This document shows positions 8,005 through 21,110 of a stretch of 50,335 bases of DNA, piece by piece. Below the pieces are notes generated by a model. It ran no database searches and was not told the origin of the DNA. It worked only from the letters and a program-made list of their open reading frames with translations. The first letter of the stretch is position 1. Every line of letters begins with the position of its first letter. The stretch lies in UHGV virus genome UHGV-1998140. One strand, given 5' to 3'. This stretch comes from a virus. Both the position numbers and the translations under genes were made by a program.

Positions 8005-8015
8005 ATCGCGTCCAT

Positions 8016-8038
8016 AAAAAAAGCCACCGCAAGGTGGC
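8016..8038 (-). terminator. Rho-independent terminator-like hairpin between tail gene I and J
   Basis: GCCACC-gcaa-GGTGGC stem followed on the minus strand by a 7-U tract, 12 nt upstream of the J start. Confidence 0.45.
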
Positions 8039-8067
8039 CTGTACTGGAGGAATTACTGACTGATTAT

Positions 8068-8667
8068 TTATTGCTGGTCTTCGACGTATATTCCTGCGGA
8101 AATAATCGCGCCGCCAATTCGCCGCTTACCATAAAGCAAACCAACGGGATAACCCTGTGAGGCGGTATTTGTTACACCGCCAAAGGCATAGCTGGCTTTA
8201 TTCTCGGGAGATTCTCTGCGGGCTAGACCTCCGGGCTGAGGGGAAAGCATCTGGACGACGCCGCCTAGCATCATGGCTGCGCCGCTGGTCATAAGGCTTG
8301 CAGCCAGTGGAGAAGCCGTCCCGCCCGAAACATACGTCATTACCGCGCCCACAACGACCAGCACTGCGCCAAGAATCGTTTGAAGAATTCCGGCCTTTTT
8401 ACTACCAATGACGACAGGAACGATGCGGACTACTTCTCCTGTAGCAGGAAATCCCAAATCATCCTTACCAATATTCTTCTTGCCCCGGAAAACAGCAAAG
8501 GTCAGTCCCTGTTCCTTGCTGTTAAGCATGAATTTTTCGAACCCAGGAATGGTCGCCGCTAATGCGGCCCCCGCTTCATGAATTGTGCTAATTAAACGAT
8601 AGTGGAACCTGCCAAAGGTTTTTCCCAAAACGCCAGAAAGCTCTATTCGTGTCATGGTTTCTTGCAT
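8068..8667 (-). CDS. Tail assembly protein I-like
   Basis: 199 aa, Gly/Ala-rich hydrophobic C-terminal half resembling lambda gpI; positioned between K and J. Confidence 0.75.
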   Translation of the reverse strand: MQETMTRIELSGVLGKTFGRFHYRLISTIHEAGAALAATIPGFEKFMLNSKEQGLTFAVFRGKKNIGKDDLGFPATGEVVRIVPVVIGSKKAGILQTILGAVLVVVGAVMTYVSGGTASPLAASLMTSGAAMMLGGVVQMLSPQPGGLARRESPENKASYAFGGVTNTASQGYPVGLLYGKRRIGGAIISAGIYVEDQQ

Positions 8668-8712
8668 ATATATTCCATTTAAAAACCCGGTTAAGCCTAG
8701 TTTTAGTGTTAT

Positions 8713-9096
8713 TTACTGTCCGCATAGCTTACGTATAGCCATGTACCTAATAGTATCGGCCTCATCACGAACGTATACTTTACTGGATAAATAATACTTT
8801 GGTGACATAAATGGCAATAATGTAGGCTCAGCAACCAGTGTTATAGCAAAGGGGGTCGGTCCGTTATAGGCACCAAAACTATTTCTCCCGTTAACTTTCC
8901 CGATTATGCAATATGCGCCATTTCCAATATCTCTATCATTTATTTCTCTTGTTACCAAATCAGTAAATTCGGCACTATCAGGATCTTTCATTATCCTTTT
9001 AATTTCTTTCTTCGCGATATCAGTAATCTGATCATTACCTGGCTTACAGCCTGCCAGGCAAATAGCGCATAAAAATACAGTTAAAAAATTCCTCAC
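8713..9096 (-). CDS. Lipoprotein (moron inserted between tail genes I and K)
   Basis: GTG start at 9096 with AAGGAG 6 nt upstream; N-terminus MRNFLTVFLCAICLAGC is a lipoprotein signal peptide with lipobox; ORF-track ATG at 9117 is probably too far upstream. Confidence 0.6.
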   Translation of the reverse strand: MRNFLTVFLCAICLAGCKPGNDQITDIAKKEIKRIMKDPDSAEFTDLVTREINDRDIGNGAYCIIGKVNGRNSFGAYNGPTPFAITLVAEPTLLPFMSPKYYLSSKVYVRDEADTIRYMAIRKLCGQ

Positions 9097-9162
9097 TTGC
9101 TTCTCCTTTTCAGTCAAAAACTTAAAGTCCCTTGTAGGATAAACCTGAATATGAAGAGAAGG

Positions 9163-9873
9163 CTAACACAGAGAGTGATGGCGAACGATTTTCATCGTTC
9201 GGTCTAACCAGTACCCGCCATACGGCACTCGCTGGCTGAGGTGGCCATAGAGATGGTGCAGCAGCATGTTCCCTTCCAGCAGAATCCCGGCATGGTTCCA
9301 CTTATCTGCCTGCACCTGCATGATGACCATATCGCCCGGCTGCGGCGGGCCATCAAATTCACGGAACCCGCATTCGTACCAGCAATCATGGTAGAAGTTA
9401 TCCGGATAATCGTTTTCCCACCAGTGATAGTCGACACGGTAGTCATGCAGCTCGATGCCGTGGGTCTGCCGAAAATAACTCATCACCAGCCCCCAACAGT
9501 CGTAATGGCCAAGCACGAACGGTCGCTCGATGAGCGGCAGCTCACCCCTTGGATGGATGGTGCGGAGATCGCCTTCCGGCCAACTGATGATATGCCAGGG
9601 GAGCAGCGTGGCATCACACTGCGCTTTATCCAGTTCGCTGGGCTGAGTGGTCGCATCCGGATGGCTGTGAACAATACCGATGACCACACCCCAATCTTCT
9701 ACCTCTGCGTAATCTTCTGGAGCCAGGACGAAATTATCATTCGACTCGCTGGCCAGGTTCCTGCAGGGGAAATAGCGCTCAACACGCCCCTTCTGAGCAA
9801 GCAGCCCGCAGGCCTCTCGCGGGTACTCAGACGCAGCATGCGTCTGAATGGCTTTAATCGTTTTCTGACGCAT
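9163..9873 (-). CDS. Tail assembly protein K-like (MPN/JAMM plus NlpC/P60-like)
   Basis: 236 aa; HSHP JAMM-type motif and Cys/His-rich C-terminal half as in lambda gpK. Confidence 0.8.
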   Translation of the reverse strand: MRQKTIKAIQTHAASEYPREACGLLAQKGRVERYFPCRNLASESNDNFVLAPEDYAEVEDWGVVIGIVHSHPDATTQPSELDKAQCDATLLPWHIISWPEGDLRTIHPRGELPLIERPFVLGHYDCWGLVMSYFRQTHGIELHDYRVDYHWWENDYPDNFYHDCWYECGFREFDGPPQPGDMVIMQVQADKWNHAGILLEGNMLLHHLYGHLSQRVPYGGYWLDRTMKIVRHHSLC

Positions 9874-9874
9874 A

Positions 9875-10630
9875 TCAGCTCCTTATCAACGACGTGCCAG
9901 GGAACCCCCCGAACGGCAGCTCGTTGTTTTCACCAAAGCGCAATTTGCACGCCGAGAGCGTCCCATTGCAGACGTCCTTCGAAGGGTCATCGACCGGTTT
10001 GTTGTTCTTATCGAAATATTTTGTCCCGGCATAATCACAACCATCGCCGCTGCGGTACTGGTTGCGAATACACCAGGTGCAAATCGAGTGGTATTGCCGG
10101 GTAGGAATCATTAGCCCCTGCAGGTCCAGCGGGCTTGATAGGGTGAACTCCACCGCTTCATCGGTTTCAAGATTTTTGGCATCGATAAAATACAGCTGAC
10201 GCTTTTCCTGCGTAGGGTCTGCGGACGCGTTTCCCTCCGTGAAATTTCGCGCATCGAGATACTGCTTTTGAGTCTCATGTATCGTGATCCGCGCCTGCGC
10301 CATGTCGTCGTAATACAGGCATAGCGCTGTAATTGATCCGTCGATATTGCCCACCCGCAGCGTTGGTTGCGCATCGCTCCCCGAGGTGCTGGATTCAATC
10401 CCTTCCAGCTCGCACGGCCAGGCTTTATATTCGATACCCTGCCACCAGATACTTTTCGCGGGTAATGCTGCTTCATCCCCACCGGCAGCGATGATTTCCT
10501 CTGCTGAATGTGGAACGTTATAACCGTGGAAATACAAGACCTCGCCCATATTAAAAGCGCGGCCGTCTATTTCGAACAACCGGATTTCATCACCCGGCTC
10601 CAGTTTCTGGTAATTTGCATTCAGACTCAT
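9875..10630 (-). CDS. Minor tail protein L-like
   Basis: 251 aa, Cys-rich C-terminus, synteny between M and K. Confidence 0.8.
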   Translation of the reverse strand: MSLNANYQKLEPGDEIRLFEIDGRAFNMGEVLYFHGYNVPHSAEEIIAAGGDEAALPAKSIWWQGIEYKAWPCELEGIESSTSGSDAQPTLRVGNIDGSITALCLYYDDMAQARITIHETQKQYLDARNFTEGNASADPTQEKRQLYFIDAKNLETDEAVEFTLSSPLDLQGLMIPTRQYHSICTWCIRNQYRSGDGCDYAGTKYFDKNNKPVDDPSKDVCNGTLSACKLRFGENNELPFGGFPGTSLIRS

Positions 10631-10965
10631 GGTTTAAATCCCTGAATAAAAGTGGCTGAAAGTGAATAATTCCCGCCGCCCATCGGCACGGGCTTATATT
10701 GTTCACAACGGAATAGCCCCGCATCTTCAAGCGGCGGAGTCCACTGAAACGACTTTGTACCTGCATGCCGGTCCAGGAACTGTTTTATTGGTCGGATATA
10801 CTCCTCAGTACCGACAAAACTCAACTCCCATTCCTGGGACCGGGTATTTAATCCGTCCCCTGAAACCTGCGTATACCCGTCACCAAATTCCGCCTTTCTG
10901 GTGCGAAACTTCACGGTTTGCGCAGGGTTTACCCGGGGACTCCAAGTGAATATCTCAATGGCCAT
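10627..10965 (-). CDS. Minor tail protein M-like
   Basis: 112 aa, immediately downstream of the tape measure gene, start overlaps its stop. Confidence 0.75.
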   Translation of the reverse strand: MAIEIFTWSPRVNPAQTVKFRTRKAEFGDGYTQVSGDGLNTRSQEWELSFVGTEEYIRPIKQFLDRHAGTKSFQWTPPLEDAGLFRCEQYKPVPMGGGNYSLSATFIQGFKP

Positions 10966-13900
10966 TAGCGTTGTCCTCTTACGGCGCTCCAGATAGCGCC
11001 ACCCGGGCGCATATCCTTCGCCTGCAGCTCACGATATTTTTTCTCGACGAACGACCCAATCTGCTGGCCAAACTCTTCAAACCCTGACGTGCTGTCAGTC
11101 GAGGTTTTGTCGCCAGAAATGGTGATCCAGACTTTTGGCCCTTCAACAGACGCTGAGGGCTGGCCGGATGCTGTCGCCCGGATGCCTGAAAACTCATCCG
11201 CGGCACGCGGCGCAGGTATCATCGGAGCCGCCCCCATTCCGGTGATCCCCTCTGCGCTTGTGCTGAAACCTGTTCCGACAAGACTTTGAATCGTGGTCAG
11301 AAGTGACTGTGTCGCCATATCAATCAGCCCCTTAATGACCGACAGGGCCGGGCCGGAGGACTGTTCACCAATGGCACGGACGCCCAGCGAACCATCAGTC
11401 CCTCGGGTCAGTGGCATAATGGCCTCTGGACCAGCCTCACCAAATACCCCCGCGCCTTTGGCAAAGGCGAAGAGCTGCGGGGTGTCGTGGATCTGGTTGC
11501 TGTAGGCACTTAATGAAGGGGAATCGTAGACGCCACCTTTTGCGTTGAATTCCACCGTGGCTGCAGCGGCTTCATACGAACCGGACGGCGTATTTCCACC
11601 TCCTGCCGCACCTGCACTTCCTCCGATCGCACCGCCAAAAGCAGAACCGACCATGCCAAAAATACTCTGCAGTGCACTGGAAAGCGCGATACGCGTGGCA
11701 ATTTGCGCCAAATCTGAAAGGATTGAAATAGTAAAGCTTTTGAAGCTTCCTTTACCGGTTATGGCAAAGGAAGCGAGGGAGCTTGCCATGCTGTCAAAGG
11801 CACTCGTGGTAAAGCTGGCTATCTGGCTGTTTGCATCCCGCGCATTATCTGTCCAGTTCTTCGCCCCACGCCTGAATCCCGCGCTGTAATCCTGTTCTGC
11901 TCTCAGACGATCCTGCACGCTTTGCTCGGTAATCTGCAGTTCCTGCTGCTTTATCCGCTCCAGATCGGCCAGACGGGCCTGATATTCAGCCGATGTGGTA
12001 TCGATAAAATCTTTCTCCAGCGCAATGCGCCGCTGATTAAAGCGGTTAATAATGGCGTTACGGGCTTCTGCGTCGCTAGCTTCCTGTTCGGAAAGGTTGT
12101 ACTTCTCCAGATTCAGAGCAGCTTCGCGCTGCATAGCCTGAGCCTCTTCAGCCCACTTACGGCTTTCAGCCTGATATTTCAGCGAGGTTTTTCGCAAGAC
12201 GGCTTCTTTTTCAAGCTGAATATTCGACTGCAGTTGCGCCCGGATCTGGTCCTGCATATTCACCAGGCTTTGCTGGCTTTTGGTCAGGTTTTCACCCTTC
12301 AGCCCGGAGAGTTTTTCATTAAAGGCGACCAGCTGTCGTTCGGATTCTGTCAACGTATCAGTGGTCTGCGCCTGTTCTTTCAGTACTGCGTTTCGTTGCA
12401 GTGCCTGCTCCAGCATTCGCTGCCCTTCAGTCTCGCCGCTACCAGACTTTTTGGGTTTATCTTTCTTCGTGGCCTTGTCGTATTCATCATTAATCCCTTT
12501 CAGGATCCGCTGATACTCCTGCGAGCCGGATGCGTAAATGCTGTTATTGAGTTTTTTTATCGCTGCAGCACGCTTTTCTGCTGCGGTACTCCCGGCATCC
12601 ATGTAGCTCTTCAGCCCGGCAGCGTTTTTTATACGGTCACTTTGTGCCTCGGCGTATCCTGCTTTGCTTGTAGCGATAAAGCGGCGTGTCTTTTCGTCAA
12701 ACTCTTTCTGGTCTTTAGTGAGGAGATCGGTCAAAGCAATGGTTTCACCAAGACTTCCGAGTATCCCCCACTCACGCCCAAGATTTTTTAACTTATCAAG
12801 ATAAGTTTCCGCGTGTGCCGCCAGCTCTTTCAGTTTAAAGCTTTCCGCATCAAGAGCTTGTTCCATGATGAGCTGCGTTGCTTTCGCTGTTTCCCCTTTA
12901 TTCGTCAGGCTGATAACCTGTGCGACAATGGATTCATTCAGCGAAATGCCCTGGGCTGTCAGCTGGGCCATCGCATTAAGCGGGTCTCCCTTCAGGGCAG
13001 ATATTTTGCTGACCAGATCCTCAGCGTTCCCACCGGCTTCAGCGTAGGCTGTCGCAATAAATGCAACTTCATGCAGCAATGCACCACTGAAACCACCGTT
13101 TGCCGCAGCGACCACAGCAGAAAGGGAATGTTCTGTACCACCAAGCTGAGCATTGAGGCTTCTCAGTTCAGTGAGAGATAACTGAGCTGACGTTCTCGTT
13201 CCGAGTAGCGCCGCATTCAGTTTTTTTGTTTGCTCCTCGGATTTTTTAAACTCGCTGTAAATCATTGAGCCACCGGCAGCAAGCACCGACAGGCCAATAC
13301 CAACAGGTCCACCCAGCAGACTCATCGCCGAACTAAGCGCCCGGCTGCTGGTCGCTGCAATACGCTGGGTCACAGTAAGCTGGGTATTTGCCGCAGCAGC
13401 AGCTTCTGTTGCTGCTGTTAGTGCCGCCTTTCCACCTGTTTCGGCGGCATCAGCGGTCACAACAACCGCTTTGGCGGCTTTTAATTTTTCAAGCCCGCTG
13501 GCCTCAAGACGGTTCGCTTCAATGATCGCCCGCTCATTCTTCAGGTGTTCATCCTGATAGCTGACATTCAGCCCGTACAGCTTATTAACTTCGGTTTGTT
13601 TCGCGTAATACTCGTCCAGCGCAATCGCCTGCTCACGCTGGGCCTGCGCTGCCGCTATCGTCTTTTCAGCGATAGCAGCTTTATTCAGCGCAGACTGCCT
13701 TTCGGCCTGTGCCGCCGCAATTTGTGCCTTTGCCGCCGACTCCAGTTCGGCAGCTGCCTGACGGGCTGCATCCTGCTGTGTCTTCCAGCCTCCTGCCGAA
13801 CTGTCAAGTCGCCCCTTTAAGGTATGAACGGCGGGGATAAGTGCATTAATTATGCTGCTGCTGGCGACATTACTCCCGGCTGCAACTTCATGAAGCACGA

Positions 13901-14147
13901 AGTTCAGTTGGCCAGCACCTCGGGTGGCACCGGCAAACTGATCATCATTAGCACCCTGCACGCCGATTTTTTTTGCGGCCTCGACGGTTTTGGCTATCGC
14001 TGTTGTCAGCTCGTTAGCCTGTGCTGTCGCCTGCTGATTAAATTTTTTACTGGCCTGCCCTGCGTTCTGATATGCCTCGGTAATTTGCGACCGGAATGCA
14101 GCTGAATTCAGATGCAGGGCAACCGATAAGCTGGCTACATCACTCAT
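10965..14147 (-). CDS. Tail tape measure protein
   Basis: 1060 aa, Ala/Gln-rich coiled-coil composition with Gly-rich central region; follows G/G-T chaperone pair. Confidence 0.9.
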   Translation of the reverse strand: MSDVASLSVALHLNSAAFRSQITEAYQNAGQASKKFNQQATAQANELTTAIAKTVEAAKKIGVQGANDDQFAGATRGAGQLNFVLHEVAAGSNVASSSIINALIPAVHTLKGRLDSSAGGWKTQQDAARQAAAELESAAKAQIAAAQAERQSALNKAAIAEKTIAAAQAQREQAIALDEYYAKQTEVNKLYGLNVSYQDEHLKNERAIIEANRLEASGLEKLKAAKAVVVTADAAETGGKAALTAATEAAAAANTQLTVTQRIAATSSRALSSAMSLLGGPVGIGLSVLAAGGSMIYSEFKKSEEQTKKLNAALLGTRTSAQLSLTELRSLNAQLGGTEHSLSAVVAAANGGFSGALLHEVAFIATAYAEAGGNAEDLVSKISALKGDPLNAMAQLTAQGISLNESIVAQVISLTNKGETAKATQLIMEQALDAESFKLKELAAHAETYLDKLKNLGREWGILGSLGETIALTDLLTKDQKEFDEKTRRFIATSKAGYAEAQSDRIKNAAGLKSYMDAGSTAAEKRAAAIKKLNNSIYASGSQEYQRILKGINDEYDKATKKDKPKKSGSGETEGQRMLEQALQRNAVLKEQAQTTDTLTESERQLVAFNEKLSGLKGENLTKSQQSLVNMQDQIRAQLQSNIQLEKEAVLRKTSLKYQAESRKWAEEAQAMQREAALNLEKYNLSEQEASDAEARNAIINRFNQRRIALEKDFIDTTSAEYQARLADLERIKQQELQITEQSVQDRLRAEQDYSAGFRRGAKNWTDNARDANSQIASFTTSAFDSMASSLASFAITGKGSFKSFTISILSDLAQIATRIALSSALQSIFGMVGSAFGGAIGGSAGAAGGGNTPSGSYEAAAATVEFNAKGGVYDSPSLSAYSNQIHDTPQLFAFAKGAGVFGEAGPEAIMPLTRGTDGSLGVRAIGEQSSGPALSVIKGLIDMATQSLLTTIQSLVGTGFSTSAEGITGMGAAPMIPAPRAADEFSGIRATASGQPSASVEGPKVWITISGDKTSTDSTSGFEEFGQQIGSFVEKKYRELQAKDMRPGGAIWSAVRGQR

Positions 14148-14374
14148 TGTCCTAGAATCCTCATAACATCAGCACACTGCTGGTCAGCAAGAGAAGGGGA
14201 ATGGCTGGCAGTGGTTTCTTGAGCGGACAGATGAACAGCTTCACCACCGCTCAGGGAGAACCAGGCCTGCCAGTAAAGAAGAATATCTGCAGGAAGACTG
14301 GCAATTTTTCGTGGGTCATACTCCCCCATGCGGGCGGCAAGCGAAAAAACCGCCATAAGCCAGGGGGAGTTCAT
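14144..14374 (-). CDS. Tail assembly chaperone T segment (expressed as G-T fusion by -1 frameshift)
   Basis: 76-aa ORF in -1 frame relative to G; its ATG overlaps the G stop (TAATG); slippery heptamer immediately upstream. Confidence 0.7.
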   Translation of the reverse strand: MNSPWLMAVFSLAARMGEYDPRKIASLPADILLYWQAWFSLSGGEAVHLSAQETTASHSPSLADQQCADVMRILGQ

Positions 14375-14718
14375 TAGTTTTTTTGTGCTTCCTCCAGCGT
14401 ACCGTAGCTAAAACGCTGGACCTTGCTCATCGCCTCGGTTATCGATGCATAGGAGCGTGATTTCATCAGTTCCAGCGGAGAAGGCAGGTTCTGCAGGGGA
14501 AGGCCATTTTCGTCGACCAGAGCGCTCAGTACCAGCCCTGCAGCTTCCAGCATCAGCCCTCGCGTATTATCGGGACCGGTCAGCTGTGATGCTTTATCTT
14601 CAAACTCTGACATTTCAAAGGCGGTAAGACGTCTGATATGGAATTCGCTGCCAAACAATTGGACAGGAACTGCATCACTGTCAGGGGCCAGAAGGCGGGA
14701 TTTAACGTCATCTTTCAT
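14374..14718 (-). CDS. Tail assembly chaperone G-like
   Basis: 114 aa, acidic, between major tail protein and tape measure gene, ends in frameshift site. Confidence 0.75.
   Translation of the reverse strand: MKDDVKSRLLAPDSDAVPVQLFGSEFHIRRLTAFEMSEFEDKASQLTGPDNTRGLMLEAAGLVLSALVDENGLPLQNLPSPLELMKSRSYASITEAMSKVQRFSYGTLEEAQKN
14377..14383 (-). promoter_or_regulatory. Programmed -1 ribosomal frameshift slippery site A_AAA_AAC
   Basis: Last codons of G read GCA CAA AAA AAC TAA; heptamer fits X_XXY_YYZ in the G frame; -1 slip reads through into the T ORF. Confidence 0.6.
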
Positions 14719-14730
14719 TGGTTACTCTCC

Positions 14731-14760
14731 ATAAAATAGCCACCCGGACCGGAGGTGGCT
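14731..14760 (-). terminator. Terminator-like hairpin downstream of major tail protein gene
   Basis: AGCCACC-9 nt loop-GGTGGCT stem followed by U-rich AUUUUAU on the minus strand. Confidence 0.4.
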
Positions 14761-14781
14761 GTCACTTCAATAATGATGTGG

Positions 14782-15240
14782 TTATGCCCCGCTGCTGTTG
14801 GCAGTGCCCCAGGTGATTTTGTTCTGCTTTCCCTGCACGGTGATCTGAATGACCTCACTCGCCGGAGCGGTGATTTCGTTCATCTGCCAGCCGGACAGCG
14901 CCAGCAACATCGTCGCCGTCCGCTTGTTCGGTAGTTCAACATACAGCTGGATAGTTTCTCGGGCTTCCGCTGCGTTAAGCAGAGCGGCAAAATCCGTATT
15001 GCTCGGATCATCAATAAAACCCAGCGACTTTTCAGGCCCGTCAGGCAGATCACTGATGGATTGTTTCTGCTTATCAAGCAGCGTAGTGCAGTCGACAAAA
15101 CCTCCCGTCTGCCCCATTGCGCCCAGCGCTTTACAGTTAACCAGCGGCTTCAGAGCCGATGCTGCAGCGCCGGGTTCCCCGTATTTTACGATGGTGCCAG
15201 CAGGCAACATCGCATATTCAGGCGAACTCTTATCAGCCAT
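14782..15240 (-). CDS. Major tail (tube) protein
   Basis: 152 aa, directly upstream of G/G-T, flanked by hairpins. Confidence 0.7.
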   Translation of the reverse strand: MADKSSPEYAMLPAGTIVKYGEPGAAASALKPLVNCKALGAMGQTGGFVDCTTLLDKQKQSISDLPDGPEKSLGFIDDPSNTDFAALLNAAEARETIQLYVELPNKRTATMLLALSGWQMNEITAPASEVIQITVQGKQNKITWGTANSSGA

Positions 15241-15275
15241 AATTTTCTCTCTTTTTTATGAATGGGTAGCTAACG

Positions 15276-15680
15276 CTACCTGTTTTGAATGCCGTTGCGG
15301 ATTTCGACCGCTAGGACGCGCAGAACCTTCTGGACATTGTGATCCAGCGCCGGTCGGATAAACGGTTGAGCCACTTGTTTAACGGTGCCAACCTCCTGCG
15401 CCAGTGCTTTCATATGATGCTTTTTACTCGGTCCAACCCGGAGGGTGACAACGGTACTTCGGTACTTCGCTGTTCCCTTCCTTGAGCTGATTTTTATACT
15501 GTCCCGCATATGAGGGCCGGGGCTTTCTTTGTCAAAGCCGGCATGCTGCTTCATATCCTCCTGGACAACCTTTAACGCCTCACGACCGGCATCCCGTAAC
15601 ACCTTCGTCGCGACCTTTTCCCCCAAAGCGGTTAACTGCCGTTCCAGCTCATCCAGCCCTTTCACCTCCATTCGGATCAT
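15276..15680 (-). CDS. Tail component, HK97 gp10-like
   Basis: 134 aa, N-terminus MIRMEVKGLDELERQL typical of HK97 gp10-family proteins; synteny. Confidence 0.65.
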   Translation of the reverse strand: MIRMEVKGLDELERQLTALGEKVATKVLRDAGREALKVVQEDMKQHAGFDKESPGPHMRDSIKISSRKGTAKYRSTVVTLRVGPSKKHHMKALAQEVGTVKQVAQPFIRPALDHNVQKVLRVLAVEIRNGIQNR

Positions 15681-16066
15681 GAAGAGTCCTCCACGTAGTG
15701 AATGATGAAATCACGAATCAGGCGGTACTGGATGCTGCGGTTCGTCAGCGTCGTTTTATCCTGTTGGATACCACCACGCTCCACATACTGAACCGGGATA
15801 CCCTCAAGCTGGCCGTGAACGATTGACTTCCATTCCGACCAGATTTTTTTATCAAGTAGCAGCAGTGAGGTGTAATCATCAACGCGGTACAGGTTCACCT
15901 GGATACGGGCAGATACGATCCCCGTCCGTAATGTTCCCGAGACCATTTCCGGGTCAGAGATACGCTGAAAGGTCACTCCTTCCTGGACCGTGTCCGGCAG
16001 TAAAAGCGGGTACGCATCCATGCCGGTGATGCGCTCCAGCGCGGTTTTAATCGCCAGTTCTATCAT
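15677..16066 (-). CDS. Head-tail joining / tail completion protein (hypothetical)
   Basis: ATG at 16066 (MIELAIKTALERITGM) chosen inside the 203-aa track ORF so that overlap with the upstream gene is 20 nt. Confidence 0.5.
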   Translation of the reverse strand: MIELAIKTALERITGMDAYPLLLPDTVQEGVTFQRISDPEMVSGTLRTGIVSARIQVNLYRVDDYTSLLLLDKKIWSEWKSIVHGQLEGIPVQYVERGGIQQDKTTLTNRSIQYRLIRDFIIHYVEDSS

Positions 16067-16385
16067 GGCGCCCGTCAGCCTCCCCCGTAATGATGATCCG
16101 GTCAGTTTTACGGTCGATATTCCGGACTGTATAAACCAAGTCTTTTGTCGTGATTTTCCAGTCGATATCGACCACCACGCCCGGATAGACGGTAAACAGG
16201 CAGGTTTCCACCACTTGCTGTTGGTCCATCGTGCGGACTTTTCTTCCCGATACCAGCTCCCGCTTTGCCCAGGCCTTTCCCGATTCAACTAACTTTTCCG
16301 GCAGCGGTTCACCCAACGGCCCACGACCGGATTGCATATAGCCAATCACAATGCGGCAGGTCATTTCTTCCGGTTTAAGACTCAT
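16047..16385 (-). CDS. Head-tail adaptor / head closure protein
   Basis: 112 aa, synteny between connector-like gene and tail genes. Confidence 0.55.
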   Translation of the reverse strand: MSLKPEEMTCRIVIGYMQSGRGPLGEPLPEKLVESGKAWAKRELVSGRKVRTMDQQQVVETCLFTVYPGVVVDIDWKITTKDLVYTVRNIDRKTDRIIITGEADGRHDRTGD

Positions 16386-16702
16386 AGCGTGTCCTTTAAA
16401 GGGAAAAGAAGACTACTTACCGACAACGTTTCCAGCCACTGGCCCCTGAATCCATTCAGATACGCATCGCCGACCAGATACTGCACGGCCAGCCTGATAT
16501 CCTCATCTGCCACGAATCCACGGACGGTATCAGGGAGCGCTTGCAGCTCCTCATCACTGGTGACCAGCTTGCAGTTGTAATCACGCTCGATGCTTCGCTG
16601 TGCGGCGTTAACCATTCTCGTGAGCATGGCGTCGTGCTCAGTGAAATCCAGCTCCAGGCGAAGCTGGGTTTTCACATCATCCAATGTCAGTATCAAAATC
16701 AC
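16382..16702 (-). CDS. Head-tail connector protein (gp6-like)
   Basis: Proposed GTG start at 16702 with GGGAG upstream; N-terminus then reads ILILTLDDVKTQLRL; track ATG at 16795 would overlap the upstream gene by 119 nt. Confidence 0.55.
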   Translation of the reverse strand: MILILTLDDVKTQLRLELDFTEHDAMLTRMVNAAQRSIERDYNCKLVTSDEELQALPDTVRGFVADEDIRLAVQYLVGDAYLNGFRGQWLETLSVSSLLFPLKDTL

Positions 16703-16961
16703 TTTCTCCCTTGCGGGGGGCCATCGCTTTCTTTGCGTCTTCCGGCCATACCGCAATATGACGTTCGACCAGCTCTTCAGCATGGACTGCATCAAAGCAG
16801 GCCGTATCGCCGCGCGAATATCGATGATGAGGGCCTAAGAAAACGACGGCCTTACGCCCCGAAGTGTTCGCTCCGACCACAATTTGGTCAGCAGTGTTTT
16901 CTGAACCTTCGACATCAGAACCGTCTTCGGTCGCCGCTGGTTTAGTCGCTTTACCTGCCAT
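16677..16961 (-). CDS. Hypothetical small head-module protein
   Basis: 94 aa, strong RBS AGGAG 8 nt upstream of ATG, immediately after the capsid-gene terminator. Confidence 0.55.
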   Translation of the reverse strand: MAGKATKPAATEDGSDVEGSENTADQIVVGANTSGRKAVVFLGPHHRYSRGDTACFDAVHAEELVERHIAVWPEDAKKAMAPRKGESDFDTDIG

Positions 16962-16977
16962 GTTATTTCTCCTGGAA

Positions 16978-17048
16978 TAGAAAAAGCCCGCTGTTGCGGG
17001 CCAGAGGTGGTTGAATGTTTTCTTCTGTGCGACCGTGGTCGCACAGAA
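16978..17048 (-). terminator. Tandem hairpins / rho-independent terminator downstream of major capsid gene
   Basis: 11-bp perfect stem TTCTGTGCGAC/GTCGCACAGAA (17023-17048) followed by GCCCGC-tgtt-GCGGGC (16986-17001) and a U-tract on the minus strand. Confidence 0.55.
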
Positions 17049-17059
17049 TACCGGGTCGG

Positions 17060-18352
17060 TTAAAACAGCACTTTAGTCCCGAGTACAAGCCCTTCAGGAT
17101 GGCGGAAGCCAATGTCGTGTTCAGTAATAACTCGGATCAGAGACTGGTTGCGGGAGAACGCTGACACCAGATTGCCATCGGCGTCGATATAAGAGGCCTC
17201 TTTCGAGAAATCGACCTTCATATTGCCGTCTTCACCAATAACCACGTCATTGAAGTCGGCAAAGTAGATCTCGGACTCCTTACCGCCGGTACCCAGATTG
17301 GCAGGAATAGCGCTGGTACGCTGAATCGGGTAGCCCTTCAGCATGCTCTGTGGCCCCTGGGACATTTCCGGATAGACTTTGTTACCGTTGCCATCACGCA
17401 GGCCGTACAGCTTCATGTAAGTACGGTTAGACATGCCCCAGCCGCAGCTGATCATGTTGCTGTTACCGTCCATTGCCATCAGGATGATCTTATCGAGATA
17501 CTCATCAATCGTGTTCAGATTGATTTCAGCAGCTTCCCACGGCAGCAGGCGGTTCCATTCGGTTGCCCGCGCCTTCATACCCGTCGGCGTATCGCCGGTA
17601 CCGTCATCACGCATGAACGCCTTATCTTCGCGAACAGAAATGGCGGTCAGAATATCTTGCAGGACCAGTTGCTCAACGTTAAACCCGGCACGCCCAATCA
17701 GCTGGTTAGAGATTGGCACCATCGCAATCATGGTTTTTGCCGTCAGTTTCACATCATCAAAGCGCGCTTCCGACACTTTGGCATCTTTGTTTTCGCCGGT
17801 ATAACTTGCCGTTGCACCACCGGCCAGGCGCGGCAGCGCCATATTGCCATTAGGCAACGGAATGGAGCGGGCACCCAGCTTACGGATGATGGTACGGTCA
17901 CGCAGTAGCTCAATCACTTCGCTGTGCAGGTTCTGCGGGATGAGAACTCCGCCAGATGATGCGGCAGTGGAGATGGCCATCGATACAGATGGGTCATTCA
18001 GTTCTTCTGCGGCAAACGTTGCCGCGTCCTGCAGATTGCCCGCCCCCGCTGCAACGGCCATGACAAGACGAGTCATCCCGGCACCGGTATATTGCTTCGG
18101 CTCCTGCTTCACAACAATGCCCGGAGCCTGCTGTGTAGCTTTAACCGGTTTCGCAACCACCGCTGCGGCACGTTCAGCAGCTTCCAGTCGTTCCATTTTG
18201 GCGCTGATATCGCTGAACTGCTGCTGCAGACCAGCAAACTCTGTCAGCTGCTCCGCTGTCAGCGTACCGCCATTCGCTTCAATCGTGGCCAGTGCCTGGA
18301 CTTGTTCGTTAATACCCGCACGCTGACGACGCAATTCTTCAATCTGTGGCAT
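17060..18352 (-). CDS. Major capsid protein, HK97 family
   Basis: 430 aa with N-terminal coiled-coil delta-like region; position after prohead protease. Confidence 0.9.
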   Translation of the reverse strand: MPQIEELRRQRAGINEQVQALATIEANGGTLTAEQLTEFAGLQQQFSDISAKMERLEAAERAAAVVAKPVKATQQAPGIVVKQEPKQYTGAGMTRLVMAVAAGAGNLQDAATFAAEELNDPSVSMAISTAASSGGVLIPQNLHSEVIELLRDRTIIRKLGARSIPLPNGNMALPRLAGGATASYTGENKDAKVSEARFDDVKLTAKTMIAMVPISNQLIGRAGFNVEQLVLQDILTAISVREDKAFMRDDGTGDTPTGMKARATEWNRLLPWEAAEINLNTIDEYLDKIILMAMDGNSNMISCGWGMSNRTYMKLYGLRDGNGNKVYPEMSQGPQSMLKGYPIQRTSAIPANLGTGGKESEIYFADFNDVVIGEDGNMKVDFSKEASYIDADGNLVSAFSRNQSLIRVITEHDIGFRHPEGLVLGTKVLF

Positions 18353-18374
18353 TTTATTTCTCTCTTTTTAGGTA

Positions 18375-18398
18375 TAAAAAAAGCAGCCCGGAGGCTGC
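18375..18398 (-). terminator. Terminator-like hairpin between protease and capsid genes
   Basis: GCAGCC-cgga-GGCTGC stem followed by 8-U tract on minus strand. Confidence 0.45.
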
Positions 18399-18426
18399 TT
18401 TCTGGTGGTGACGCGCTTGCGTCGGG

Positions 18427-19347
18427 TTACATTCTGGTTTGCAGGTCCATCGCTGCCGCCTGCAGCTTGATGGAACCGGCTTTTTGAGGCGTTTTGTACT
18501 TCGCCGCAATAGCATTGATCGCCGACTGAGGGTCTGAAACTTCATCGGCCAGACCGGCAGAAATAGCACTGGCACCGAAAAAAGTCCCTGCCTGTGTGCC
18601 AATAACGGCCTGTAAATCTAAATCTCGATATTCAGCAACCGAAGTCGTGAATGTCTGGTACATATCGTCAAGTATCTTGTCGTACATTGCGAGAGAGGCT
18701 TCACTCAGTGGCTCATGAGAAGTACCGTTATTTTTGTTATCTCCACGATACATGGAGGTAAATTTTACACCGATATTCTCTTCCATTTTCGATGTATCCA
18801 GGTGTTCCATTATCACCCCGATAGACCCCACGCCGCTGGTCTGGCTAATAACGATTTTATTGCAGGCAGAGGCAATAAAATAAGCCGCTGAAAACGCGTT
18901 GAAGTTAACAATCGCGGTAATGGATTTCGTCTCTCGCGACTGATAGATGTAATCTGCCAGTTCTTTACACCCGGAGGCGTAACCCCCACCGGAATTTATA
19001 TCCAGCACGATTTCGCTGATGGATGAATCGTTTAACGCCGCGTGCAACTGACTGCGAATACGCTCATAGCTGGTTAGCTCCGTACAGGCTTGCGTTATTT
19101 GTCCCCGACGCGGCACCAGTAATCCATGTACAGGAATAACAGCCACGCCACCGGCTGGCTGGACCTGCTCAGGAGTCGGGGTGCCATCCGGATTGAGTGC
19201 CATCGTGAAAACCGGGTCCGTCACTGTTCCCTGAATGCGCGGGAGCAACACGGCCTTTACGGCATCCATCGTTTGCTGCGTGACGTAATGCGGGACGCCA
19301 AACACTTGGGCGGTAAGATGCGGCAGATTTAGGTTTGTGATATTCAT
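18427..19347 (-). CDS. Prohead maturation protease (S49/ClpP-like)
   Basis: 306 aa between portal and capsid genes; serine-protease-like core. Confidence 0.8.
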   Translation of the reverse strand: MNITNLNLPHLTAQVFGVPHYVTQQTMDAVKAVLLPRIQGTVTDPVFTMALNPDGTPTPEQVQPAGGVAVIPVHGLLVPRRGQITQACTELTSYERIRSQLHAALNDSSISEIVLDINSGGGYASGCKELADYIYQSRETKSITAIVNFNAFSAAYFIASACNKIVISQTSGVGSIGVIMEHLDTSKMEENIGVKFTSMYRGDNKNNGTSHEPLSEASLAMYDKILDDMYQTFTTSVAEYRDLDLQAVIGTQAGTFFGASAISAGLADEVSDPQSAINAIAAKYKTPQKAGSIKLQAAAMDLQTRM

Positions 19348-19360
19348 GAGTTTTGCCTAT

Positions 19361-19384
19361 AAAAAAACCCGCTTTCGCGGGTTT
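19361..19384 (-). terminator. Rho-independent terminator after moron gene
   Basis: AAACCCGC-gaaa-GCGGGTTT stem followed by 7 U on minus strand, 24 nt after the stop at 19408. Confidence 0.6.
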
Positions 19385-19407
19385 AATAGATATCGGAGGT
19401 GAGGCGC

Positions 19408-19755
19408 TTATTCTATAGAGGTAGATTGTCGTCCTGTGAGAGTGAACTCTACATTCACATCGTCGAAGCCCCTCGAATCTTTCCTGGGATAGTCCATTTC
19501 TTTGCAAAACATTTTGAAGCCAAGCTGAGCAAAGTTTTTTTCCTGTTCTGCTGGAAAATATTCGGAGAAAGATACAGCAAGGCACTCGTGATTTTTGAAC
19601 TTCGTCCGCTCGACGGGCCATCCTACACTCTTGCAACGCCGGGTGAGATCTTCTTCATCGGCACCCAGCAGAAATACTCTAAATGCCACCTGGCTGTATG
19701 TTCTAATACTGCCAGTCGGCTTCATTGGCTGATTAGGATCATAATTTGAGAACAT
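19408..19755 (-). CDS. Hypothetical protein (moron between portal and protease)
   Basis: 115 aa, AT-richer than neighbours, own downstream terminator, no recognisable motif. Confidence 0.5.
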   Translation of the reverse strand: MFSNYDPNQPMKPTGSIRTYSQVAFRVFLLGADEEDLTRRCKSVGWPVERTKFKNHECLAVSFSEYFPAEQEKNFAQLGFKMFCKEMDYPRKDSRGFDDVNVEFTLTGRQSTSIE

Positions 19756-19847
19756 TTTTGCACCTGAAATGGCCTATGAATTATGCAGGTATATTATCAC
19801 TAAAATTGATGAAAGGGTGCCTGTAGCCAGCAAGACAACCACCTTAA

Positions 19848-21110
19848 TTAACGAGCCAGAATCGCTTCAATCTTAGCCAGTTGTTTTGCCGTCGGAATTT
19901 TATCGCCTGGCAGGATTTGATTGCTGTCGACCATGTTCAGTGGTGTCAGATATCTGTCCCCGCCCTCAATCGGCGGCAGGTTTTCCATGCGGCGAATATC
20001 GTTGGTCGATAACCAGCCCCACTGACGACCCAGCGCATATGACTCATAGCGCGATTTCTGGTCGCCACGCAGTAAGCCGGAAACGTTGAATTCGATATAC
20101 AAGTCGCGGCGTTCGCTGGCCAGCAATAAATCACGCTGCAGTGCCCCTTCATGGCGTTTCAGCCAGGCGAGGAGCGTATACATCACGAACTGCAGACCCT
20201 GATGCTCGATGTTGTTATTGGTCGCTTTCGCAAGCATTTGCACCATGTGTGGCGGGATTTTGTAGAGCCGACACACTTCCTCCACGCCCCACTGGCGCGA
20301 TTGCAGCAGCTGTGCTTTCTCGTTGTCCTGCGACATCTGCTTGTAGCTCATTCCTTCTTGCAGCAGCGCCACAGAAAAGGCATTACGCATACCAGAATAT
20401 CGGTCAGTCCATTTAGCCAGTAGCTGGTCTATCTTCTCCTGGCTCTTGATTGCCGGGGCGGCCTGTGGACGCTCGATAACGCCGCTCATCGTTGTTCCGC
20501 GCCGGAATGTGGCAGATGCATGCTCCTCCACTGCCAGATTCAGCCCGAGTACATCTGCGTTCGTCTGAATCGGTGAACTGCCGATATAGCCATCCAGAGA
20601 AAAGACTTTCACATGGTGCACCATGCGCATCGGTAACGTTTCACCGATGTCCGGGATTTCATAATAGGGCATCCCGTCCGGGCCTTTCAGAACAATGACC
20701 TTTTTCGGGTTAATTGGGATGAGTTCTTTTGGGTAGCCTCTACCGTCACGGTCGATGATCGAGTAGCAATTGCCCTCCAGCCCCAGCAACCCCTGCTGCT
20801 GCTCAAAGTACTCAAATGAAGTGTCTTTTTTGTTTGGCTGAGAATGAATCAGGTCATAAATCGGGTGGTCTGTCGCACGTTGCCGCCCACCATTTTTATC
20901 TCGTCGATAGAGTTCGACAGGCAGCTGCGCGACGGACTCCGCCAGGAGGGTTACGCACGCACGAACAGCAGAAAGTGCAAGCGCCGTTTCCGGCGTAATC
21001 ATGACACCGGCTTTACTGTGACTTGAACGGACACCACCCAGCATTGCTTCCCAGAATCCGCCACCTGATACCGACCGCTTTTTACCTTCAAACATCTGGG
21101 GAATAAACAT
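19848..21110 (-). CDS. Portal protein, HK97 family
   Basis: 420 aa directly downstream of terminase large subunit. Confidence 0.9.
   Translation of the reverse strand: MFIPQMFEGKKRSVSGGGFWEAMLGGVRSSHSKAGVMITPETALALSAVRACVTLLAESVAQLPVELYRRDKNGGRQRATDHPIYDLIHSQPNKKDTSFEYFEQQQGLLGLEGNCYSIIDRDGRGYPKELIPINPKKVIVLKGPDGMPYYEIPDIGETLPMRMVHHVKVFSLDGYIGSSPIQTNADVLGLNLAVEEHASATFRRGTTMSGVIERPQAAPAIKSQEKIDQLLAKWTDRYSGMRNAFSVALLQEGMSYKQMSQDNEKAQLLQSRQWGVEEVCRLYKIPPHMVQMLAKATNNNIEHQGLQFVMYTLLAWLKRHEGALQRDLLLASERRDLYIEFNVSGLLRGDQKSRYESYALGRQWGWLSTNDIRRMENLPPIEGGDRYLTPLNMVDSNQILPGDKIPTAKQLAKIEAILAR

What the first reader, a model, noticed from the sequence alone, without database searches (positions are those of the whole stretch)
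14377..14383. Programmed -1 frameshift producing a G-T tail chaperone fusion
The heptamer A_AAA_AAC lies in the last codons of G, and the T ORF is in the -1 frame with its ATG overlapping the G stop. This is the conserved lambda-like G/GT mechanism.
Basis: partly seen in the sequence, partly recalled or inferred. Interest (0 to 1): 0.4.

Follow-up and report, generated by a model that had tools for sequence, protein, structure and literature searches.

The report
Tail chaperone G–T frameshift site
This is an ordinary but well-preserved phage "slippery site": a few ribosomes slip back one base at the end of a tail-assembly gene to make a longer fusion protein, and the site is flanked by conserved RNA signals that had not been pointed out for this phage group.

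Summary
On the minus strand, gene G (14718..14374, 114 aa, Pfam Phage_TAC_14) ends CAA AAA AAC TAA. The heptamer A_AAA_AAC (14383..14377) is in the correct phase. ORF T (14374..14144) lies in the -1 frame, between the tail tube gene and the tape measure gene.

Comparison with 105 related loci supports a programmed -1 frameshift producing a 191-aa G-T fusion:
- 104 of 106 sequences carry NNA AAA AAC plus an immediately adjacent stop.
- All heptamer wobble positions are frozen in 35/35 clusters.
- T is always in the -1 frame.

The window's T-frame ATG is present in only 5/34 clusters, so it is incidental.

A GGAGGA lies 7 nt upstream (29/31 representatives). A stem-loop starts 6 nt downstream (14370..14320) and shows repeated compensatory changes at synonymous positions.

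The system is lambda-like in logic but not in sequence family, heptamer or stop position. phiKO2 gp13/gp14 already carry a "putative programmed frameshift" annotation, so this is a new member of a known kind. Nothing has been shown experimentally. The heptamer is weak in E. coli reporters (0.16-0.74%).

The parts
14374..14718 (-). Gene G: tail assembly chaperone, 114 aa, ending CAA AAA AAC TAA
   Evidence: ORF. Pfam Phage_TAC_14 E 2.9e-12, 47 bits against a cutoff of 22.1. PHROG 25875 positions 4-114.
14390..14395 (-). SD-like GGAGGA inside the conserved T-L-E-E-A codons, 7 nt 5' of the heptamer; candidate upstream stimulator
   Evidence: Coordinates checked. An SD-like word 6-17 nt before the second motif base occurs in 29/31 representatives (criteria from PMC4066793). 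Glu -6 is GAG in 29/31 while the adjacent Glu -5 is GAA 17 / GAG 14. Background usage is GAG 47%.
14377..14383 (-). Slippery heptamer A_AAA_AAC in X_XXY_YYZ phase of G
   Evidence: Invariant in 35/35 clusters, and the preceding codon always ends in A (GAA 15, AAA 15, CAA 4, ACA 1). Wobble entropy is 0 at all three codons, against background AAC 47% and AAA 70%.
14374..14376 (-). G stop codon TAA directly abutting the heptamer; its last A is the first base of the T-frame ATG
   Evidence: The stop immediately follows the heptamer in 35/35 clusters (TAA 23, TGA 12).
14144..14377 (-). T segment in the -1 frame: 77 codons from CTA (Leu) to TGA, read after the slip. It also forms a 76-aa ORF from ATG at 14374.
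   Evidence: PHROG 25875 positions 118-194 and PHROG 14748. T is in the -1 frame in all relatives, and the conserved L-x-x-S-P-x-L begins at the first post-slip codon.
14320..14370 (-). Downstream stem-loop. Outer stem ACUCCCCC (14370..14363) pairs with GGGGGAGU (14327..14320); inner helix 14354..14349 pairs with 14338..14333. The spacer after the heptamer is 6 nt.
   Evidence: MFE -33.1 kcal/mol, z -2.3. Pair 23-65: GC 14, CG 8, AU 1, UA 1, GU/UG 5, unpaired 2. Pair 26-62: GC 16, CG 6. About 10 state changes on the tree. 26/31 representatives keep at least 5 of 7 core pairs in their own MFE. Under the synonymous-resampling null the window z is -3.45 and the mean z is -2.45.
14144..14718 (-). 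Predicted G-T fusion product, 191 aa, junction ...EEAQKN-LMNSPWL... if both tRNAs slip
   Evidence: Translation. The fusion-length PHROG 25875 profile (195 positions) covers both halves.
10965..14147 (-). Tape measure protein gene (1060 aa); its ATG overlaps the T stop (ATGA)
   Evidence: Pfam Tape_meas_lam_C and TMP_4. PHROG 24.
14782..15240 (-). Major tail (tube) protein gene, immediately upstream of G
   Evidence: Pfam Phage_TTP_13 E 2.7e-74.
14738..14760 (-). Terminator-like hairpin plus U tract between the tube gene and G (context, not part of the frameshift signal)
   Evidence: phiKO2 has a 'putative terminator' annotated at the same place.

Best explanation
G and T are the two halves of a tail assembly chaperone pair in an integrated Klebsiella prophage whose virion module is phiKO2-like.

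Most ribosomes translate G (114 aa) and terminate at TAA. A small fraction slip back one base on A_AAA_AAC, most likely with tRNA-Lys on AAA in the P site and tRNA-Asn on AAC in the A site. They then read CUA AUG AAC UCC... in the -1 frame and make a 191-aa G-T fusion with the junction ...QKN-LMNSPWL....

Three conserved elements probably set the slip rate:
- an SD-like GGAGGA 7 nt upstream that can pair with 16S rRNA;
- a stem-loop starting 6 nt downstream, which puts it at the mRNA entrance when AAA/AAC occupy the P and A sites;
- possibly the zero-frame stop that abuts the heptamer.

By analogy with lambda, the G part would bind the tape measure protein and the T part would recruit the tube protein, and a low GT:G ratio would be needed for tail assembly.

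Shown here: the sequence anatomy, family membership, conservation of heptamer, phase and stop, lack of a conserved T start codon, and RNA-level selection on the stem and on the GAG codon. Inferred: that slippage occurs at all, its efficiency, the exact junction residue, that the flanking elements stimulate it, and the protein functions.
For: - Anatomy and phase.
- Gene order tube, G, T, tape measure, with Pfam and PHROG assignments. PHROG 25875 is a 195-position 'tail assembly chaperone' profile that matches G at positions 4-114 and T at 118-194.
- phiKO2 gp13/gp14 at the syntenic position are annotated 'putative programmed frameshift'. They end GAA AAA AAC TAA, and there the following ATG is in the G frame, so T has no start.
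- The closest relatives end AAA AAA AAC TGA and have ATC where the window has ATG.
- 104/106 sequences, down to about 33% G identity, carry the heptamer plus an abutting stop with T in the -1 frame. The exceptions are indels that fuse the frames.
- In 35 clusters the X wobble is A in 35/35, AAA AAC is present in 35/35, and the stop abuts in 35/35. The A-run length varies from 6 to 9 while the heptamer register never moves.
- ATG at T codon 2 occurs in only 5/34 clusters. Most relatives have no ATG, GTG or TTG before T codon +5 to +30 and none upstream, yet T residues are conserved from the first post-slip codon.
- Wobble entropy is 0 at the heptamer codons against about 1-1.8 bits elsewhere. 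Background usage is AAC 47% and AAA 70%.
- SD-like word at a published stimulatory spacing in 29/31 representatives; the GAG/GAA contrast between the two adjacent Glu codons.
- Stem-loop evidence: compensatory changes at two synonymous positions 42 nt apart, about 10 independent state changes, 74% of cells paired against 36-48% in slid controls, independent MFE recovery in 26/31, and synonymous-resampling z of -3.45 for the window (mean -2.45).
- A_AAA_AAC is a proven bacterial -1 site in IS1 (PMC4066793).
Against: - No experimental evidence exists for this family.
- A_AAA_AAC is a poor shifter in E. coli reporters: 0.16% alone, 0.19% with IS911 stimulators, 0.74% with the IS3 pseudoknot (PMC4066793 Suppl. 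Table S3). Ribosomal slippage could therefore be well below lambda's roughly 1:30.
- RNAalifold with default settings returned no consensus structure on the 31-sequence alignment.
- The tested structure was derived from the window sequence, which favours it in slid-partner controls.
- One clade (L014, L024, L104) lacks the stem, and two of its three members lack the SD-like word. The flanking signals are therefore not indispensable.
- The window does have a T-frame ATG overlapping the stop (TAATG), so some free T by termination-reinitiation cannot be excluded in this lineage.
- The A7 run could also give some transcriptional slippage.
- The deposited phiKO2 gp14 uses a K-K-L junction, not K-N-L, so the junction residue is unsettled.
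- The invariance of AAC over AAT is not explained by the published efficiencies.
Confidence: 0.85

Rival explanations
1. Transcriptional slippage, not ribosomal slippage, is the main route. RNA polymerase adds one A in the A7 run, and ordinary translation of those mRNAs gives a G-T fusion with a K-K-L junction.
For: 34 of 35 clusters have runs of 7-9 A. L032 shows that a +1 A at the DNA level gives exactly such an in-frame fusion. The ribosomal efficiency of AAAAAAC in E. coli is below 1%, so even rare polymerase slippage could be comparable. The clade without the stem, which mostly also lacks the SD-like word, has A9 runs throughout, and 9 is the length at which slippage is well documented (PMC5009743). 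The deposited phiKO2 gp14 junction is K-K-L.
Against: What is conserved is the 7-nt register, the C and the abutting stop, not the run length. The run varies from 6 to 9, and the base before the heptamer is unconstrained (GCA/GCG/GCC). One well-populated cluster (L079, 10 loci) has only A6 and keeps the exact heptamer. A stem-loop 6-7 nt downstream and an SD-like word upstream are under RNA-level selection, and these are signals for ribosomes rather than for polymerase slippage. A7 is below the lengths shown to slip efficiently.
Confidence: 0.08
2. T is made as a free 76-aa protein from its own ATG by termination-reinitiation at TAATG, and no fusion is needed.
For: In the window, ATG overlaps the G stop. 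Gene callers annotate T as a separate 76- or 70-aa hypothetical protein in this lineage.
Against: ATG occupies a variable codon and is present in only 5/34 clusters. phiKO2 and most relatives have no start codon in the T frame before codon +5 to +30, yet they conserve L-x-x-S-P-x-L from the first post-slip codon. The nearest SD-like word is 16 nt from the ATG. This rival does not explain the frozen heptamer, the stop position, or the stem and SD selection. It may coexist as a minor lineage-specific route.
Confidence: 0.05
3. The juxtaposition is fortuitous, or the region is a decayed or mis-sequenced gene. T is not expressed, or G-T was once one gene broken by an indel.
For: AAAAAAC is common in this window, 21 copies. 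Homopolymer indels do occur in relatives (L008, L032, L045).
Against: The same split arrangement recurs in more than 100 loci from many genera, with T under protein-level conservation. The in-frame versions are single-contig oddities.
Confidence: 0.02

Closest known systems
Klebsiella phage phiKO2 gp13/gp14 (tail assembly chaperone; 'putative programmed frameshift from Gp13')
   Same: Syntenic position in a homologous virion module (85% nt over 58% of the window's 8000-22000). The site is identical, GAA AAA AAC TAA, with T in the -1 frame. Both belong to Pfam Phage_TAC_14 and PHROG 25875. The fusion proteins are 41% identical.
   Different: The G/T cassette itself is diverged: only 74% nt identity over 117 nt. 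phiKO2 has no T-frame ATG. phiKO2 is a linear plasmid prophage, whereas the window carries a lambda-type integrase next to host T6SS genes. The deposited gp14 places the junction as K-K-L.
Phage lambda G / G-T (-1 frameshift at G_GGA_AAG; Levin 1993; Xu, Hendrix and Duda 2004, 2013, 2014, as summarised in PMC5009743)
   Same: Two overlapping ORFs between the major tail gene and the tape measure gene. The second ORF is in the -1 frame and is reached by a heptamer near the end of G. The expected product is a low-abundance G-T fusion.
   Different: The heptamer differs (A_AAA_AAC against G_GGA_AAG). Lambda G runs 5 codons past the site, while here the stop abuts it. G belongs to a different Pfam family (Phage_TAC_2 against Phage_TAC_14) and lambda T is Phage_tail_T. 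T-to-T profile similarity is only suggestive (E 0.0068, probability 5.6%). Here there is a conserved SD-like word and a covarying 3' stem-loop.
E. coli dnaX and IS911 -1 frameshift signals (upstream SD-like sequence, A_AAA_AAG, 3' stem-loop)
   Same: Three-part architecture: an SD-like word within the 6-17 nt stimulatory range, an A-rich X_XXY_YYZ heptamer, and a stem-loop about 6 nt downstream.
   Different: The last base is C, not G. This lowers efficiency by one to two orders of magnitude in E. coli reporters. The zero-frame stop abuts the site. The outcome is a longer fusion at a presumably low level, not a 1:1 shorter product. No Rfam family matches.
IS1 insA-insB' frameshift (A_AAA_AAC)
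   Same: The same heptamer. It is a proven, low-efficiency -1 site in enterobacteria, used where a small amount of fusion protein is wanted (PMC4066793).
   Different: IS1 has no established stimulator. The proteins are unrelated (transposase).

Membership tests
G/GT-type tail assembly chaperone frameshift (Xu, Hendrix and Duda 2004 class) | Two ORFs located between the major tail (tube) gene and the tape measure gene | tested here: met
   Tube gene 15240..14782 (Phage_TTP_13), G 14718..14374, T 14374..14144, tape measure gene 14147..10965.
G/GT-type tail assembly chaperone frameshift (Xu, Hendrix and Duda 2004 class) | Second ORF overlaps the end of the first in the -1 frame and lacks a conserved start of its own | tested here: met
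   T is in the -1 frame in all relatives. ATG occurs in only 5/34 clusters, and most have no start codon nearby.
G/GT-type tail assembly chaperone frameshift (Xu, Hendrix and Duda 2004 class) | In-phase slippery heptamer X_XXY_YYZ inside the overlap, conserved among relatives | tested here: met
   A_AAA_AAC in phase. Present in 35/35 clusters with frozen wobble positions.
G/GT-type tail assembly chaperone frameshift (Xu, Hendrix and Duda 2004 class) | A G-T fusion protein is actually made at a low ratio to G and is needed for tail assembly | not testable with these tools
   Needs mass spectrometry, western blots or genetics. Only lambda data are available, from the literature.
Pfam PF16462 Phage_TAC_14 | Score above the gathering threshold over the full-length profile | tested here: met
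   47 bits against a cutoff of 22.1; profile positions 2-113 of 113.
PHROG 25875 (tail assembly chaperone, fusion-length profile) | G matches the N-terminal part and T the C-terminal part of one profile | tested here: met
   G: E 1.5e-22 at positions 4-114. T: E 1.3e-17 at positions 118-194 of 195.
Lambda gpG / gpT sequence families (Pfam Phage_TAC_2 PF06894, Phage_tail_T PF06223) | G matches Phage_TAC_2 | tested here: not met
   Lambda G hits PF06894 at E 9e-62. The window's G hits only PF16462.
Lambda gpG / gpT sequence families (Pfam Phage_TAC_2 PF06894, Phage_tail_T PF06223) | T matches Phage_tail_T or is detectably homologous to lambda T | tested here: inconclusive
   No Pfam hit for T at E <= 0.01. 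At E <= 10 there is only a sub-threshold Phage_TAC_18 hit (E 0.11, 13.1 bits against a cutoff of 27) and still no Phage_tail_T. hhalign of the T-family profile against lambda T gives 35 columns, E 0.0068, probability 5.6%.
dnaX/IS911-type stimulated -1 frameshift signal | [quoted passage not shown] | tested here: met
   GGAG, GAGG and AGGA at 9, 8 and 7 nt. Present in 29/31 representatives. Criteria from PMC4066793.
dnaX/IS911-type stimulated -1 frameshift signal | Conserved RNA structure beginning about 5-9 nt 3' of the heptamer | tested here: met
   Spacer of 6-7 nt, with covariation and a synonymous-resampling null. However, the RNAalifold default consensus was empty.
dnaX/IS911-type stimulated -1 frameshift signal | High-efficiency heptamer ending in AAG | tested here: not met
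   The heptamer ends in AAC in all 35 clusters. AAAAAAC gives 0.16-0.74% against 0.29-39% for AAAAAAG in E. coli.
dnaX/IS911-type stimulated -1 frameshift signal | The flanking elements measurably raise frameshifting | not testable with these tools
   Needs reporter assays with synonymous and compensatory mutants.
Programmed transcriptional slippage site | Homopolymer run long enough for efficient slippage (about 9 or more A/T in bacteria) | tested here: not met
   The window has A7. Relatives have 6-9, and only 5 of 35 clusters have A9. Length criterion from PMC5009743.

The most novel reading that the evidence does not exclude
The phiKO2-type chaperone genes carry a distinct, conserved frameshift cassette that is absent from Rfam. 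Its parts are an SD-like GGAGG, the intrinsically weak heptamer A_AAA_AAC, a zero-frame stop that must abut the heptamer, and a covarying 3' stem-loop.

In this reading the abutting stop is itself a stimulator: slow release-factor decoding gives peptidyl-tRNA-Asn time to slip. That would lift a heptamer giving less than 1% in E. coli reporters to the few-percent level needed for tail assembly.

In addition, one clade lost the stem, mostly lost the SD-like word, and has A9 runs. That clade would have switched partly or wholly to transcriptional slippage. The same protein ratio would then be maintained by two different recoding mechanisms within one gene family.
Probability: 0.25. Interest if true: 0.55.

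Novelty: new member of a known kind. Interest (0 to 1): 0.3.

Why it matters
For annotation: in this Klebsiella oxytoca prophage lineage, public records list G as 'phage tail protein' and T as a separate 70- or 76-aa 'hypothetical protein'. No fusion is deposited. The correct gene model is G plus a 191-aa G-T product.

For recoding biology: the family offers a natural, well-sampled series for asking how a weak heptamer is tuned. The series spans more than 30 diverged clusters, A-runs of 6-9, two stop codons, and lineages with or without the stem and SD-like word. The compensatory changes sit at synonymous sites, so the mutant and compensatory-mutant experiment is already designed.

None of this changes the general picture of G/GT frameshifting in tailed phages, which is long established.

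Tried and rejected
- **RNAalifold consensus:** default settings on the 31-sequence alignment gave no consensus structure. I therefore relied on explicit pair counts, per-sequence folds, parsimony counts and a synonymous-resampling null.
- **Rfam:** at E <= 10 there were only chance hits to eukaryotic families.
- **Upstream hairpin 14420..14393**, which would sequester part of GGAGGA: 69% of cells are paired but there is almost no covariation. I dropped it as a family feature.
- **Natural in-frame G-T fusion in Edwardsiella piscicida (L008)** as support for the K-N-L junction: it occurs on one contig only, and sister strains have the normal 112-aa G. It is probably a mutation or sequencing error, so it is weak evidence.
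- **Homology of T to lambda T:** suggestive motif (LxxLAxxxGxxD...W) at the same distance from the slip site, but hhalign gives probability 5.6%. Inconclusive.
- **The phiKO2 genome paper** (J Bacteriol 2004) could not be retrieved by DOI or by a guessed PMC id. What its authors said about the site is therefore known only from the GenBank note.
- **Heptamer rarity as evidence:** rejected, because AAAAAAC occurs 21 times in the window.
- **Mutual information:** pair 23-65 ranks third of all column pairs. The other top pairs are clade signals without complementarity.
- **Not used:** the large protein searches and structure prediction, because they would not bear on the frameshift question.

Full report
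**1. What is there**

The genes lie on the minus strand. Plus-strand 14377..14383 reads GTTTTTT, which is AAAAAAC on the coding strand.
- ORF G (14718..14374, 114 aa) ends ...GAA GCA CAA AAA AAC TAA. In G's frame the heptamer reads caA_AAA_AAC, the canonical X_XXY_YYZ phase, and it is followed at once by the stop.
- ORF T (14374..14144) is in the -1 frame. Its ATG overlaps the stop as TAATG, and its TGA overlaps the ATG of a 1060-aa tape measure gene as ATGA.
- The T frame is open upstream only to 14410.
- A -1 slip on the heptamer would give a 191-aa protein with the junction ...EEAQKN-LMNSPWLMAVF....

The heptamer by itself is not unusual: AAAAAAC occurs 21 times in the window against about 9 expected.

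**2. What the genes are**
- G matches Pfam Phage_TAC_14 (47 bits, cutoff 22.1).
- The upstream ORF is a Phage_TTP_13 tube protein.
- The downstream ORF has tape-measure domains.
- PHROG 25875, a 195-position 'tail assembly chaperone' profile, matches G at positions 4-114 and T at 118-194. Relatives have therefore been deposited as fusions.

The window's virion module is 85% identical to Klebsiella phage phiKO2. In phiKO2, gp13 and gp14 at the same place are annotated 'putative programmed frameshift from Gp13'.

The window itself is an integrated prophage. It has a lambda-type integrase and host T6SS tssM at one edge. An identical G occurs in an 810-kb K. oxytoca contig. It is therefore not a phiKO2-type linear plasmid.

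**3. Comparative test of the frameshift**

phiKO2 ends gp13 with GAA AAA AAC TAA. There the following ATG is in the G frame, so its T segment has no start. The nearest relatives (about 80% nt identity) end AAA AAA AAC TGA and have ATC where the window has ATG.

I collected 105 related loci. The viral scan that gave 80 of them used peptide seeds that exclude the K-N codons, so it is not biased toward the heptamer. The genome scan's seed did include K-N.

Of the 106 sequences (105 loci plus the window), 104 carry GAR GAR GCN NNA AAA AAC plus a stop, with T in the -1 frame, down to about 33% G identity. The anomalous loci are:
- L008 lacks the pattern. A +T insertion fuses the frames and reads KKN-L. 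It is a one-contig oddity.
- L032 lacks the pattern. It has one extra A relative to its sisters and reads KKK-L.
- L045 keeps the heptamer and stop, but an indel in another A-run about 30 nt upstream fuses the N-terminal part of G into the T frame.

In 35 clusters at 85% aa identity:

| Feature | Result |
|---|---|
| Codon before AAA AAC | GAA 15, AAA 15, CAA 4, ACA 1 (always ends in A) |
| AAA AAC | invariant |
| Stop abuts the heptamer | 35/35 (TAA 23, TGA 12) |
| A-run length | 6 to 9, while the 7-nt register never moves |

Wobble entropy is 0 bits at these three codons. At other conserved codons it is about 1-1.8 bits. Background usage in the same genes is AAC 47%, AAA 70% and CAA 31%.

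T-frame codon 2 is ATG in only 5 of 34 clusters. Most relatives have no ATG, GTG or TTG before T codon +5 to +30 and none upstream. Even so, L-x-x-S-P-x-L is conserved from the very first post-slip codon.

**4. Flanking signals**

*(a) Upstream SD-like word.* GGAGGA (14395..14390) lies 7 nt 5' of the heptamer, inside the conserved T-L-E-E-A codons.
- SD-like words at 6-17 nt before the second motif base are the spacing shown experimentally to stimulate -1 shifts (PMC4066793). They occur in 29/31 representatives.
- The first Glu is GAG in 29/31, while the adjacent Glu is GAA 17 / GAG 14. Background GAG usage is 47%. This is nucleotide-level selection for GAGG.

*(b) Downstream stem-loop.* A stem-loop begins 6 nt after the heptamer. 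ACUCCCCC (14370..14363) pairs with GGGGGAGU (14327..14320), and there is an inner helix. The MFE is -33.1 kcal/mol, z -2.3.

The evidence comes from a gap-free 31-sequence alignment:
- The Ser wobble (column 23) and the Gly wobble (column 65), 42 nt apart, give GC 14, CG 8, AU 1, UA 1, GU/UG 5 and only 2 unpaired. Pair 26-62 gives GC 16 and CG 6.
- 74% of cells are paired, against 36-48% for slid partners. No shuffle out of 500 reached the observed covariation score.
- On an NJ tree, pair 23-65 changes state about 10 times, with 8 changes on each side, and stays complementary in 29/31.
- 26/31 sequences recover at least 5 of 7 core pairs in their own MFE.
- Against a null that fixes the T protein and resamples synonymous codons, the window has z = -3.45 and the family mean is -2.45. 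24/31 fall below -1.64. Only about 25% of resampled sequences keep the core stem, against 84% of real ones.

Caveats: RNAalifold's default consensus was empty. The tested structure came from the window sequence. The clade L014/L024/L104 lacks the stem.

*(c) Abutting stop.* The stop that abuts the heptamer is invariant in position.

**5. Mechanism**

The best-supported model is a canonical tandem -1 slip, with AAA in the P site and AAC in the A site. In that state the stem begins 12-13 nt from the first P-site base, at the mRNA entrance. The SD-like word is at a stimulatory distance.

A_AAA_AAC is a proven bacterial shift site in IS1, but it is weak in E. coli reporters. It gives 0.16% alone, 0.19% with IS911 stimulators and 0.74% with the IS3 pseudoknot. 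AAAAAAG gives 0.29%, 4.3% and 39%. A weak site suits a product needed at a low ratio; lambda's ratio is about 30:1 (PMC5009743).

The abutting stop might add a pause that lets peptidyl-tRNA-Asn slip. This is inference only.

The junction residue is open:
- K-N-L for a tandem slip;
- K-K-L for a Lys-only slip or for transcriptional slippage. The deposited phiKO2 gp14 uses K-K-L.

The strict use of AAC rather than AAT is unexplained. TTR would still encode Leu in the T frame, and the reporter efficiencies of the two heptamers are similar.

**6. Rivals**

*Transcriptional slippage on the A-run.* It is disfavoured as the main route for three reasons:
- Selection acts on the register, the C and the stop, not on run length.
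- An A6 lineage keeps the exact heptamer.
- The flanking signals are aimed at ribosomes.

It may contribute, especially in the stem-less A9 clade.

*Free T from TAATG.* This is possible only in the minority of lineages that have the ATG. It explains none of the conserved features.

*Pseudogene or chance.* This is excluded by recurrence in more than 100 loci.

**7. Comparison with known systems**

In logic and gene position this is the G/GT system of lambda. It differs from lambda in several respects:

| Respect | Lambda | This window |
|---|---|---|
| Heptamer | G_GGA_AAG | A_AAA_AAC |
| G codons after the site | 5 | 0 (stop abuts) |
| Pfam family of G | Phage_TAC_2 | Phage_TAC_14 |
| Pfam family of T | Phage_tail_T | none (only a sub-threshold Phage_TAC_18 hit, E 0.11) |

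T-to-T profile similarity is only suggestive (E 0.0068, probability 5.6%).

In signal architecture the site resembles dnaX and IS911, with an SD-like word, an A-rich heptamer and a stem-loop, but with a weak last base and an abutting stop. No Rfam family matches. No paper in the held library describes these flanking elements for this chaperone family.

**8. Verdict**

This is a new member of a known kind, because the phiKO2 homologue is already annotated.

The modest added value is threefold:
- a corrected gene model for this lineage, where public records list T as a separate hypothetical protein;
- evidence that the ATG is incidental;
- a conserved, covarying frameshift cassette that is directly testable with synonymous and compensatory mutants.

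Noticed in passing
window 44478..45659 (+) and 47678..50323 (-); virion module about 8000..21300: The element is an integrated prophage. It has a lambda-type integrase (Arm-DNA-bind_1), with the host T6SS tssM/IcmF gene at the window edge. Its head and tail module is nevertheless 85% identical to the linear plasmid prophage phiKO2. So a phiKO2-type virion module sits on a lambdoid integrating backbone. An identical G occurs in an 810-kb K. oxytoca NBRC 105695 contig.
   Followed up: partly
window 14738..14760 (-): A terminator-like GC-rich hairpin with a U tract lies between the tube gene and G. phiKO2 has an annotated 'putative terminator' at the same place. It may lower transcription of the chaperone and tape-measure genes relative to the tube gene.
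   Followed up: no
L008:1819-1835 (Edwardsiella piscicida ACC35.1); L032:911-925; L045:1799-1805: Three relatives have single-base indels in or near the A-run that put G and T in one frame. L008 has +T and reads KKN-LRDSPWL (deposited as WP_073383225.1, 194 aa, one contig only). L032 has A9 against A8 in its sisters and reads KKK-L. L045 has an indel in another A6 run about 30 nt upstream. These are either sequencing errors or tail-defective prophages.
   Followed up: partly
L014, L024, L104 and L045 (Morganella-type clade), site region near locus positions 1777-1925: This clade lacks the downstream core stem, and L014 and L024 also lack the SD-like word. All members have an A9 run (GCA AAA AAA AAC). 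Four of the five A9 clusters are in this clade. This is a possible shift toward transcriptional slippage. It is a single clade, so the pattern is only suggestive.
   Followed up: partly
window 14377 (C of AAC) and the same position in all relatives: Asn is always AAC and never AAT (31/31), against 47% AAC in the same genes. AAT would still give Leu (TTR) in the T frame, and it has similar reporter efficiency in E. coli. The constraint is unexplained.
   Followed up: partly
phiKO2 record NC_005857 8490..9097 (L001:2163-2770): The deposited gp14 fusion (YP_006593.1) has the junction E-K-K-L. The annotators placed the slip before the Asn codon is decoded. The canonical tandem-slip product would be E-K-N-L, and that sequence is not in the public collection.
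   Followed up: yes
window 30233..31309 (-) and 33619..35592 (-): There are two DNA methyltransferase genes in the early region. One is the N6/N4 type. The other is a 657-aa protein with an N-terminal C5-cytosine methylase domain.
   Followed up: no
window 14393..14420 (-): In the window sequence, an upstream hairpin (UCCAGCGU...ACGCUGGA) overlaps the first bases of GGAGGA and contributes to a z-score of -3.25 for the wider region. It is not supported by covariation in relatives.
   Followed up: yes
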